Shown here piece by piece: positions 16,357 through 22,000 of a stretch of 64,000 nucleotides of DNA. The notes beneath the pieces were generated by a model, which saw nothing but the letters and a program-made list of their open reading frames with translations, did no database searches and had not been told where the DNA came from. The stretch lies in the NCBI GenBank assembly GCA_951406725.2, contig OX597818.1:10416001-10480000 (forward strand). The letters run 5' to 3'. A program made the translations under genes and the position numbers. The stretch is from Octopus vulgaris. Lineage: Eukaryota. The number at the start of each line of letters is the position of its first letter. Position 1 is the stretch's first letter.

Positions 16357-16557
16357 AGTTCTATATTTAGGAGATGAGGAACTCTGTACATTATTTACAT
16401 TATTTATATTATTTACATTATTTATATTCGACGGATATTTGTCCTCATCTTGTTTGTTGTTTCTTCCAGAAGAAGGCTGGAGGGTATATCAGCCGAAACG
16501 TTGTGTTAACAACAAACAAGATGAGGACAAATATCATTCGAATGTAAATAACGTAAA
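16357..16557. mobile_element. Penelope-like terminal-repeat fold-back insertion with 14-bp TSD and decayed hammerhead
   Basis: Direct repeat TACTGAAGGCATTC at 16343-16356 and 16558-16571; inverted arms GATATTTGTCCTCATCTTGTTTGTTGTT / AACAACAAACAAGATGAGGACAAATATC; CAGAAGA-A-GGCTG..CAGCC-GAAA-CG-TT at 16467-16502. Confidence 0.7.
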
Positions 16558-16889
16558 TACTGAAGGCATTCTTTAGTGAATTTGATCATTATATTTAATT
16601 TAATATTAATCATATTTCCTAAGGAAATAATTATATAGCTGAAACTCCTCGGGAAAGTCGCGTGTGATACGTTGTTGCCATAATCAGATGAAACAGTAAA
16701 TTGATCTTACCTGTTTTAAGAGTTTTACATCACTTTTCGTTTCGGTGTCCTATGATTCAACCTCCTAATTGTTTTTCTGTTTGTGGTTTGCTTCGTTGCT
16801 TTTTTTTTTCTTTTCCATATTGCATTTTGTGGACAATAGCATCGTTGGTTATCGGTTATCGTTTACCAGCAAGCTAATCACTGATTCAC

Positions 16890-16988
<99 letters not shown>

Positions 16989-17126
16989 CGGAGATGTACT
17001 CGCATAGCAAGTAATTTGATCTGAGATCGTGTGCTGAAACGAAAACAATTGCAGCGTGGAAGGTGTTTATAAGCCATTTAAGAAACACACAAAAGCCGTT
17101 CGATTCACTCCAACATTTAAGTTTAA

Positions 17127-17174
17127 TTTGTCAAAATATTTTCGTCGCAAATCCGCGACCTGTTCACTGACAAA
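17127..17174 (-). ncRNA. Mirror copy of the G3:C8 hammerhead motif
   Basis: Reverse complement reads TTTGTCA-GTGAACA-G-GTCGC-GGATTT-GCGAC-GAAA-ATAT-TT-TGACAAA. Confidence 0.7.
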
Positions 17175-17205
17175 GTCCGTGCTGCATCTCAAGATGCACA
17201 CGGAC

Positions 17206-17255
17206 TTTGTCAGTGAACAGGTCGCGGATTTTAGCGACGAAAATATTTTGACAAA
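17206..17255 (+). ncRNA. Minimal type I hammerhead ribozyme motif, G3:C8 core variant
   Basis: Stem I TTTGTCA/TGACAAA; core GTGAACA (17213-17219) plus an extra G; stem II GTCGC/GCGAC; GAAA (17239-17242); palindromic stem III AATATT; predicted cut after 17248. Confidence 0.7.
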
Positions 17256-17339
17256 TTAAACTTAAATGTTGGAGTGAATCGAACGGCTTTTGTGTGTTTC
17301 TTAAATGGCTTATAAACACCTTCCACGCTGCAATTGGTT

Positions 17340-17378
<39 letters not shown>

Positions 17379-19030: not shown

Positions 19031-22000
19031 TCATAGGATTATACTAAAGATGGCTCCGTCATTCACACGTGCCAACCTTGCTACATTCACCCATCTTTTA
19101 TTGAAACATTCACTAGTCAAAACTTCCTTCTCTACTCTAAAATTCCGCTTCATGTGTTACTTGAAGAAGTTGATGAGAGATGACCAGAGAGGAAAGTGTG
19201 TGTCTGTACATATTTCAGACGCGTCCGCCATACACATTCTTTCGCCATAGCCACAAGTACGATAAAAATGGCTCTTCCTTCCCGACTCAAGGAAGGAGGC
19301 GTGACAATATTGACGATAGACTCAGCTGATAAACCGACTCGTCACACACGCGATAGCAGTCGTTCGACATAGACCCACAGGTCGGAAATGGTTGAACACT
19401 GTACGAGTGCGTGCAGAACAGTTTCATCGATCTGACTGCATTCTGGGCAGGTCGGCCCGGTGTTTCTCGAGCCATACCTGTAAAGATTATTCCGAACAGG
19501 TAGCGCTTCTCGATAGCACTACCAGGCCAGGGATCTCTGGAAGTTGTCCATGGGTCCCGGCCCGAAAATCGTCTTGAACAGGCAAGTCAGGTATCCCACG
19601 TCGACGCCCAGGTTCGCCCCGAGATCGTCGTCGTACCTCCCCTCCACTAATCCCGTATAGAATGCTTTGGTTGTGATGCAGTCGCTCAAGGTCAACCCGG
19701 GACGGCATAGTTGCTCGAGAGCAATGCGACACACGCGGTACCATTCGCCCTTCCTTAGTCTCTATTTGATCCACGACTGCAGTTCGGCCATGGAGACGAG
19801 CTGCGAGAAAGCCCGCCTCACAAACGGCGACCGCACTTGTTCACCATCGTCTACGTAGATTCGGAAATGACGCAGTCTTAGCGCGTGTCTGTGCATCATC
19901 AACCACGGCATGCCCAGCCCTCCTTTTAGCGGGTGTTGGCAGCAAACTGATCGCCTGACCATCGGAACGCTTCCTTTTCACAAGAAGCGGAAGAAGATGC
20001 GTTCCAGTTTGGTGATGGTAGGGTCACGGCACGACGGTCAAACGGTAGAAGATGACGGACGCGATGTACGTGTTCGCCAACACCGCTTGACCTTTTAGGG
20101 ACAGCTTCCTCTCAGTCCATTGCCGGGCGAGAGTGACCACCCAAATCGTTATCTTGTCCAAGTTCTTCTCCGTTTGGAGGTCCGGACCAAACCAGACCCC
20201 GAGCAACTCGACCGGCCCGTCGATCCAGTGTCCCACGATGAAGGCATGGGCTTGCTTCTTCAGGTGCCGAGTCGCAAGCCCACTGACTTTTCCCGGTTGA
20301 TTTTCGCTCCTGTTACCACTTCGTACTATTTCAGTGTCTCGCCGACCAGCTCGACGTGGTTGTAGCTAGACACTATGACGGTGACGCCGTCCGCGTATGC
20401 GGAAATGCTCGTCTCACATCCCAATTCACGCGGGATGCCCCTCAGTGTCGCTAGCTTCCGCAGTAGTGGCTCGAGTATCAACACGTACAGAAGCGACGAG
20501 AGGGGGCATCCCTGACGGACCGAACGTGCAATGTCGAATGGACTCGATAGATGCCTATTCACGAGAATTACCGAACAGATGCCTTTGTATAAGGCAGCGA
20601 TCCAGCCGCGGAAAACGGGACCGAACCCAGCCGCTATGAGGACAGCCTCCAAGTATCGATGCTCTACTCTATCGAAAGCTTTGGATTGATCCAAATTGAT
20701 TTGTTCCCCACCCATGCCAGGTTCCTTTACTACCCTGTCTATGATGTAGCGCATGAGGGGGAGGTTGTCATAGATGCTCCGGCCGGCACGGCGAATGTTT
20801 GAGCCTTGTCGACAGTTTCTCGATGACAAACGTCAACCTCTTGGTTAGCACCTTAGCCAAAATTTTCAAATCTGCATTGAGTCGAGTGATGGGCCTAAAG
20901 TTATCTATTATGTCCCCCTTGTTTGGATCTTTCTTTAGCAGCGTTACGGCTCCTCGGCTCACAAAACCGGGGATGCTCGTAGGGCAGACCATCCAAACCC
21001 GGCGATCTGTCCCTCGCACACTCTGCCATCGCGTCTCGCACATCTGCCGCTGTGATGGTATTTTCGCAACACTCTGCCTCTCTTGCCGAGAGTCGTGGCA
21101 GGCTATGCAGATAGACACTGAAGTCCACCCTGCGTTCTCGCTCGCCACTTGTCCCGAAAATTCAGGCAAAGTGCTGCTGAAAGGCCTTACACATCTTACT
21201 AGGCTCGAGTAATTCGCGCCCCTGTTCATCCATCAGAGACCGAATAGTGGCTTGTTGCCCTGTTGCGCCTCCGCCACCCGGGCCTCTCACGCAGCTCTAA
21301 CACCTTCCATCCTTATAGCACACATCCTAGCTCTGACAACGCACCCTTCGTGTTTGGCGTTGAAGTGTTGGTCGAGGGCCAAACTCGCCGCCAATACGTC
21401 GGATGCGACGCCACTTCTAATCGCCTCTTCTAGCTTCTTTACTAGGGTCACCCTCTACTCTGTTTCTATCGATGGCTAGTGGTTTGCTATACCTAATCGC
21501 TTCCGCTTTTATTGCTCTCTTTAGCGCAAATCACCATTTGTTGTTGATGATGGCTCCCGTCAAAGACCTCTTCACTAGCGTGCTAATCCAGTTCTGAAAA
21601 CCTGTCTCGACGGGAAAGATGCGTTCAGTTTCCAGTAGCCGGGACCCTGCCTATGTTCTTTATCTAAGTCTAACCTGTCAGACAGTTGAAAGCGTCTGAG
21701 CAGGTCTTTGAGACATTTGCAACACTTCCTATTACTATTTCTGCCCACGTAGTCTAAATGCGTCTCCAACGTAGCATTCCAATCCTCCATTAAAAGTAAA
21801 GGACGAGACGTTCCTAGGAATACTTCCAGACGTCGAAAGAAAGGCGGTGAGTAGACTGATATGAGTCGAAAAGCACACCCGTTGTTGCCCTCGACATCCA
21901 GGACAACCAGTCTACCCTCCGGGTTTACGAATATTGTATTTGCTTCGAGATCCAGACTCTTACGAAAATGTTACCGCCGTGCCACTACCGCTCATTCTCG

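What the first reader, a model, noticed from the sequence alone, without database searches (positions are those of the whole stretch)
17046..17336. Mirror-image minimal hammerheads with a compensatory G3:C8 core (GUGAACA)
Seen: both arms contain TTTGTCA-GTGAACA-G-GTCGC-loop-GCGAC-GAAA-ATAT-TT-TGACAAA, with a perfect 7-bp stem I and 5-bp stem II. Established: C3 and G8 form a Watson-Crick pair in the active hammerhead, and a G3:C8 swap can retain activity. Such a variant is missed by CUGANGA searches. Inference: a PLE family uses a rare core variant with a UUU cleavage triplet; the double change suggests selection rather than decay.
Basis: partly seen in the sequence, partly recalled or inferred. 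Interest (0 to 1): 0.7.

Follow-up and report, generated by a model that had tools for sequence, protein, structure and literature searches.

The report
Swapped-core hammerhead in Penelope retrotransposon ends
This stretch is two back-to-back end-pieces of a very abundant jumping gene, each carrying a hammerhead RNA motif in which two paired core letters have traded places relative to sister families; the motif likely still cuts RNA slowly in the full element, but cutting is untested and is predicted to be blocked at this spot.

Summary
Observation confirmed; interpretation partly supported. The insertion (16987-17337, in a TA run) is two head-to-head terminal-repeat copies of a Neptune-type Penelope-like element (RT + GIY-YIG, 4.26-kb unit, found in G000). 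G3:C8 is the family state: 6,323 exact matches versus 0 with C3:G8 in the same flanks. It persists in older subfamilies whose loops, N7 and helix III differ. Related families carry C3:G8, some in identical stems, so this is a true reciprocal swap, and published lab mutants show the swap partly rescues cleavage. I found no natural G3:C8 in seven literature searches, but one key paper was not held. This scan has noted G3:C8 hammerheads before, once in this genome and in three windows of other genomes. New variant of a known kind; activity untested.

The parts
16923..16986 (.). (TA)n run, left side of the insertion target
   Evidence: most family copies abut TA runs
16987..17189 (-). Left arm: terminal-repeat (pLTR) copy from the common 5' start to the far 3' end, tail included
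   Evidence: 98-99% identical to the 3' end of ORF-bearing copies
16987..17044 (-). About 58-nt 'tail', present on this arm only; it is the start of the ORF
16988..17077 (-). First 30 codons of the element's ORF (MAYKHL...)
   Evidence: same start runs into the RT ORF in L307 and L308
17127..17174 (-). Minimal type I hammerhead motif, G3:C8 core, 6-nt loop II
17190..17191 (.). Junction of the two 5' ends; an extra G precedes the left arm (inferred copy of the RNA cap)
   Evidence: G precedes the start in 14 of 27 copies that begin there, background 14%
17192..17337 (+). Right arm: pLTR copy from the same 5' start to the near 3' end, no tail; one base missing near its start
17206..17255 (+). 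Minimal type I hammerhead motif: 7-bp stem I, 5-bp stem II, palindromic helix III
17213..17219 (+). Core positions 3-9 with G3 (17213) and C8 (17218)
17248..17248 (+). H17 (U); predicted cleavage 3' of this base
   Evidence: hammerhead numbering (established knowledge)
17305..17337 (+). ORF start codon and first codons, 56 nt after the predicted cut
17342..17371 (.). (TA)n run, right side of the insertion target

Best explanation
The locus is a head-to-head pair of terminal-repeat copies of a Penelope-like retrotransposon whose minimal hammerhead motif has a lineage-wide G3:C8 core, and this motif is likely a slow, dimer- or protein-assisted ribozyme in the full element while being predicted inactive here. 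Shown: element, copy number, reciprocal swap against relatives, common 5' start, two 3' ends. Inferred: transcription starts 22 nt before the core (capped); the hammerhead sits in the 5' leader ahead of the ATG and again at the 3' end of a tandem unit; the element's protein nicks both strands of a TA run and primes reverse transcription at two internal sites about 58 nt apart in the ORF start; both cDNAs run to the RNA 5' end and are joined there, giving the mirror image. The template is mostly uncut RNA, so cleavage would be a minor or late event (for example decapping the mRNA or trimming tandem transcripts). Selection on keeping a 3:8 pair implies that the active fold still matters.
For: Element: GIY-YIG above Pfam cut-off; 1025-aa open frame with YVDD, a CX3CX2C linker and C-terminal nuclease; L338 has two cores in direct orientation 4,261 nt apart around the ORF; all 48 cores read from protein-selected loci are GTGAACA. 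Swap: 6,323 vs 0; 95 of the first 100 hits with 3 and 8 free are G:C, 5 single changes, none C:G. Old relatives: 22 of 30 G:C, none C:G, loops highly varied, N7 mostly C; six core positions 87% conserved vs N7 72% and 3' flank 68% (core vs N7 p = 0.048). Sister family B (tree support 1.0) has C3:G8 in all 37 motifs read; three old copies have C3:G8 inside the same stem II and nearly the same stem I. Of 9 metagenome relatives, 4 show a motif: three C3:G8 and one U3:A8. On 8 aligned copies the 3:8 pair is G:C 5, C:G 3, never unpaired; 4 pairs change on both sides. Lab data: C3G/G8C partly restores a PLE hammerhead, which needs the element's protein (PMC11167929); the G:C swap was the only rescuing double mutant in the CUGA region (PMC9901934). 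Insertion mechanism: 34 of 98 copies start within -115..-109, 3 extend further upstream; tail on exactly one arm in 36 of 36 pairs.
Against: No cleavage data. No excess of copies starting at the cut: 8, versus 2, 6 and 7 at control positions and at least 101 at the 5' start. Rescue by the swap is only partial in the papers read. G3 can pair with U17, a possible inhibitory state, and a paper reports G3-C8 less active with C17 than G17 (PMC3884650, data not shown there); U17 is not covered. The AU-only palindrome is very weak as a duplex (-0.2 kcal/mol vs -3.5 for AACGUU). Active sister family B lacks A9 and has an imperfect palindrome, which could mean relaxed constraint. Only two independent 3:8 changes were seen; no intermediate family was found. 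The old-family comparison was selected on exact stem II matches and flank alignment inflates divergence. The start site and cap are inferred from copy ends only; the same spot also looks like a 3' splice site.
Confidence: 0.6

Rival explanations
1. Dead relic: the ribozyme lost function in this lineage and G3:C8 was fixed by drift in the master copies, the Watson-Crick match being chance or a leftover from an earlier active stage.
For: No footprint of cleavage in copy ends; cleavage is not needed for insertion in vitro in another PLE (PMC11167929); Naiad PLEs spread without canonical hammerheads (PMC8557442); family B tolerates C9.
Against: Core kept while loop II, N7, distal stem I and helix III changed between the young and old lineages; every family-level state seen at 3:8 is a Watson-Crick pair.
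Confidence: 0.22
2. The fold is kept for a non-catalytic job, such as binding the element's protein or acting as a downstream promoter element just after the start site, and the 3:8 pair is structural.
For: Motif lies 15-65 nt after the inferred start; templates are uncut; a PLE hammerhead is protein-dependent.
Against: The 3:8 pair is known from the active conformation, and catalytic G12, A13, A14, A15.1, U16.1 are all kept; a DNA element would not need covarying stems.
Confidence: 0.13
3. The mirror-image pair is itself a functional unit (self-cleaving pair, MITE, or small-RNA hairpin gene).
For: Near-perfect 145-bp hairpin (-256 kcal/mol); weak microRNA-type Rfam matches.
Against: One transcript holds only one sense motif; hammerhead stems have probability near 0 in the full fold versus 0.96 and 1.0 in a single arm; junctions and arm lengths differ among pairs and most copies are single; inverted 5'-truncated copies are a described PLE insertion form (PMC8557442); Rfam scores are far below gathering.
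Confidence: 0.05

Closest known systems
Minimal type I hammerheads of metazoan PLEs (PMC4209133)
   Same: Location in the pLTR, extra base between 9 and 10.1, G10.1-C11.1, palindromic helix III, predicted dimer mode, thousands of solo copies, pairs on opposite strands.
   Different: Position 3 is C in 53 and U in 3 of the 56 motifs of Fig. S3, never G. Stem I is longer here (7 bp).
Natural U3:A8 core covariants (PMC3088659; PMC4209133)
   Same: A natural double change that keeps the 3:8 pair.
   Different: Here the pair is inverted to G3:C8, putting a purine at 3.
Engineered C3G/G8C hammerheads (PAc element, PMC11167929; pairwise scan, PMC9901934)
   Same: Same core letters; partial activity shown there. 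PAc also shows two internal priming sites, a tail, AT-rich targets and uncut templates.
   Different: Laboratory mutants of other ribozymes; here the state is natural and family-wide, the ORF starts after the motif, and the tail is about 58 nt.
Neptune-type EN+ Penelope-like elements (as described in PMC8557442)
   Same: RT then Zn-finger-like linker then GIY-YIG; partial tandems; inverted copies; tail at one end; TA-run targets.
   Different: Clade placement against named references was not tested; Nematis shares the linker.

Membership tests
Canonical PLE minimal hammerhead consensus (CUGANGAH) | C3 and G8 | tested here: not met
   G3 and C8; filed as a core variant, not as a canonical member
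Hammerhead ribozyme, type I minimal | Watson-Crick pair between positions 3 and 8 | tested here: met
   G:C here, C:G and U:A in relatives
Hammerhead ribozyme, type I minimal | U4 G5 A6 A9, G12 A13 A14, A15.1-U16.1, H17 | tested here: met
Hammerhead ribozyme, type I minimal | Stems I and II with covariation; extra base after 9; G10.1-C11.1; palindromic helix III | tested here: met
   (8 related rows, so the shuffle counts are not probabilities)
Hammerhead ribozyme, type I minimal | Self-cleavage after H17 | not testable with these tools
   only contigs were available
Hammerhead ribozyme, type I minimal | Genomic footprint of cut RNA (copies starting at the cut) | tested here: not met
   8 vs 2, 6, 7 at controls; not a defining feature, and also absent from PAc RNA reads
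EN+ Penelope-like element | Single ORF with RT and C-terminal GIY-YIG | tested here: met
   GIY-YIG above cut-off; YVDD motif; RVT_1 only weak, in 2 of 4 homologs and not in this ORF
EN+ Penelope-like element | Direct pLTRs with hammerhead around the ORF; tail; inverted truncated copies | tested here: met
Neptune clade | CX2-5CxxC linker between RT and nuclease | tested here: met
   read in the L061 ORF; definition from PMC8557442
Neptune clade | Phylogenetic placement with named Neptune references | not tested
   tree holds only unnamed relatives
Non-LTR retrozyme | Head-to-tail tandem of short hammerhead units | tested here: not met
   this locus is head-to-head

The most novel reading that the evidence does not exclude
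G3:C8 is a working natural hammerhead core, and this PLE clade repeatedly rewires core pairs once thought fixed (G3:C8, U3:A8, U15.1:A16.1, C9) because the element's own protein props up the fold; whole ribozyme families with thousands of copies are then invisible to standard descriptors, and some PLEs reported as lacking hammerheads carry such variants.
Probability: 0.4. Interest if true: 0.62.

Novelty: new variant of a known kind. Interest (0 to 1): 0.42.

Why it matters
It supplies a natural, high-copy example of the compensatory swap that biochemists built to prove the 3:8 pair, together with natural relatives that share the stems but have C3:G8, which makes a clean test set. It widens the descriptor needed to find hammerheads. 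The copy ends also give in-genome support for two-site internal priming in a second PLE clade (tail on exactly one arm of every inverted pair) and suggest that uncut RNA is the transposition template, which bears on the open question of what PLE hammerheads are for.

Tried and rejected
Rfam scan: no hammerhead match. PDB sequence search of the ORF: 0 hits. G3:C8 with an ACGT palindrome genome-wide: 18 hits vs 33 in the control, so no second large family of that form; 2 of the 18 were old relatives. The same core pattern in viral contigs: 0. Sequencing runs: no RNA holder listed on record; only contigs, so no ends or strand; guessed-RNA contigs cover the pLTR but show no splice joint at the splice-site-like AG, which neither supports nor excludes an intron. 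An apparent rise of copy starts just after the cut (29 distinct loci in the first 100 rows) did not hold against matched controls; six of 98 copies starting at -48/-47 fit microhomology with TA runs. The 14 copies in the -100..-96 bin are largely an alignment artefact of subfamily differences. No RT/nuclease ORF remnants were found beside the old G3:C8 copies, only N-terminal pieces, so that family is linked by DNA and N-terminal similarity only. Searches used mis-set structure strings and are void; one search is the valid count. The first tree run did not finish; one search used FastTree on 38 rows (23 homologs under 680 aa or further down the list not all included; L268-L270 left out).

Full report
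Observation. The motif is present on both arms exactly as described. In the 64-kb window a descriptor that accepts any Watson-Crick 3:8 pair finds only these two sites; 100 shuffles gave 0 strict and 1 relaxed hit. The inverted repeat is the inner part of a larger insertion, 16987-17337, between two TA runs.

What it belongs to. The right arm has 824 first-look candidates in G000, a 2.8-Gb genome, and the 20-nt core-plus-flank motif occurs 6,323 times, control 0. Longer copies continue upstream through about 1 kb of 3' UTR into a GIY-YIG nuclease. Searching with that domain gave open frames up to 1025 aa with an RT-type YVDD motif, a CX3CX2C linker and the nuclease at the C-terminus. Pfam's RT model does not hit this ORF and hits 2 of 4 homologs only weakly; two homologs are named as RT-domain proteins by their sources. 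The ORF starts inside the terminal repeat, at the ATG that lies at 17305 in the window. L338 shows the full layout, two hammerhead cores in direct orientation 4,261 nt apart around the ORF, with a stop in this copy. These are the features given for Neptune-type Penelope-like elements in PMC8557442 (passages); I did not place it against named references. The closest named relative is labelled as an octopus protein and matches G000 at 100% over the 101 residues searched.

Is G3:C8 the family state? Yes. The C3:G8 form in the same flanks has 0 matches. With 3 and 8 left free, 95 of the first 100 listed hits (of 6,024) are G:C and 5 have one change. All 48 motifs read from loci chosen by the protein have the same core. 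Among 98 copies chosen by a downstream anchor, the core could be read in 57: 49 G:C, 8 decayed, 0 C:G. Contigs of runs labelled as three other coded organisms show no other letter at 2% or more at 17213 or 17218 (labels unverified, and absence of a row is weak).

Selection or decay? Older subfamilies differ in loop I, loop II and N7 but keep G3:C8 (110 matches with N7 not A). A much older group, found with the core left free, has G:C in 22 of 30 fetched copies and C:G in none (a 31st hit, not fetched, reads C..G), with N7 mostly C, very varied loop II and a shorter palindrome. Its six core positions are 87% conserved, against 72% for N7 and 68% for the 3' flank (core vs N7 p = 0.048; the set was selected on stem II and the flank figure is inflated by alignment error). 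The sister family B (54% protein identity, support 1.0 on a 38-row FastTree) has C3:G8 in all 37 motifs read, with a compensatory change in stem II and C at position 9. Three old copies have C3:G8 within the same stem II and, in two of them, the same inner stem I as the window. Of 9 metagenome relatives, 4 show a motif after the ORF: L262 and L267 C3:G8, L264 U3:A8 with C9, and L263 C3:G8 with U15.1:A16.1 (L263 read by eye from the printed sequence); 1 shows none and 4 lack usable flank. So C3:G8 is likely ancestral and G3:C8 derived, and each family-level state keeps the pair. On an 8-row alignment the 3:8 pair is G:C in 5, C:G in 3, and 4 of 14 pairs change on both sides (related rows, so not a probability). 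This favours constraint on the active fold but rests on two independent changes.

The mirror image. A transcript of the locus holds one sense and one antisense motif and folds into one hairpin of -256 kcal/mol in which the hammerhead stems have probability near 0; a single arm forms them at 0.96 and 1.0. Copy ends explain the shape. Of 98 downstream-anchored copies, 34 start within -115..-109 of the anchor, 3 run further upstream, and the 2 that break within 3 nt of the cut (-54) are internal breaks. A non-templated G precedes the start in 14 of 27 copies that begin there (background 14%, p = 5e-6), as expected from copying a cap (inference). The 3' ends fall at two sites about 58 nt apart, and in 36 of 36 head-to-head pairs exactly one arm has the tail. 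This matches the two internal priming sites, both-strand cutting and AT-rich targets shown in vitro for the anole element (PMC11167929, parts 1-2 of 4). Both window arms begin at this common start. The start site also resembles a 3' splice site; I could not separate the two readings.

Cleavage. TA-flanked copies that begin exactly at the cut number 8, against 2, 6 and 7 at three control positions with the same junction type and at least 101 near the common start (that last pattern misses the youngest subfamily). So inserted RNA is mostly uncut, as in PMC11167929, where the ribozyme was also protein-dependent and C3G/G8C partly active. PMC9901934 (passages) found the G:C swap to be the only rescuing double mutant in the CUGA region; PMC8495972 (one passage) gives partial rescue. 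G3 can pair with U17 in the predicted fold and the palindrome is weak, so activity is likely low.

Literature. Natural covariation at 3:8 is reported as U3:A8 in PMC3088659 (passages) and PMC4209133 (parts 1-2 of 4; supplement file 2 parts 1-2 of 3; file 1 not searchable). None of its 56 aligned motifs has G3; U17 is common and the oyster row has UUU. Searches found no natural G3:C8 report. PMC5785218, PMC1986816 and PMC4447102 were not held; I saw only their reference entries, and the first, with its supplements, could contain this variant. Also seen: PMC6765202 and PMC3884650 (passages), bioRxiv 10.64898/2026.07.22.740005 (part 1 of 5). Hammerhead numbering is from established knowledge. Earlier notes of this scan describe G3:C8 motifs in a satellite of this genome and in three windows of other genomes; I did not check them and do not count them as support.

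Verdict. A real, lineage-wide, compensatory core variant of the PLE minimal hammerhead, in an ordinary inverted insertion. New variant of a known kind; likely weakly active in the full element (about 55-60%), predicted inactive at this locus.

Noticed in passing
window 16410-16559: Another inverted repeat from a different family, enclosing a decayed hammerhead-like motif with C3:G8 and U4 changed to A (about 16466-16505); probably an older PLE terminal repeat.
   Followed up: partly
window about 19290-21970, minus strand: Broken frames that read like an APE-endonuclease and RT of an L1/Tx1-type LINE (recognised by eye, no profile search).
   Followed up: no
L148-L170 (family B); G000:C19:14372126-14381599: Very young sister PLE family with full tandems about 4,585 nt apart and open frames of 1,311-1,312 aa; its hammerhead has C at position 9 and an imperfect palindrome.
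   Followed up: partly
L263:4990-5050 and L264:2490-2550: Metagenome relatives with other core changes: U15.1:A16.1 swap in L263; U3:A8 plus C9 in L264.
   Followed up: partly
L003:1470-1500 and other long copies: A branch-point-like CTAAC, a pyrimidine tract and AG lie directly before the common 5' start of short copies; an intron end here, as in Drosophila Penelope, is possible but no splice joint was seen.
   Followed up: partly
G000:C26:25545098-25545855; C11:18767048-18767870; C27:31281449-31281952: Several short copies a few hundred bases apart, three in the same orientation on C26; such direct clusters could allow dimer cleavage.
   Followed up: no
L104:1500-1530: A single G3:C8 motif with good stems in what looks like an otherwise canonical, unrelated hammerhead family; only one such copy was seen.
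   Followed up: no
P0088: An annotated leucine-rich-repeat host protein isoform includes a 66%-identical piece of this element's ORF, suggesting an exonised or mis-annotated insertion.
   Followed up: no
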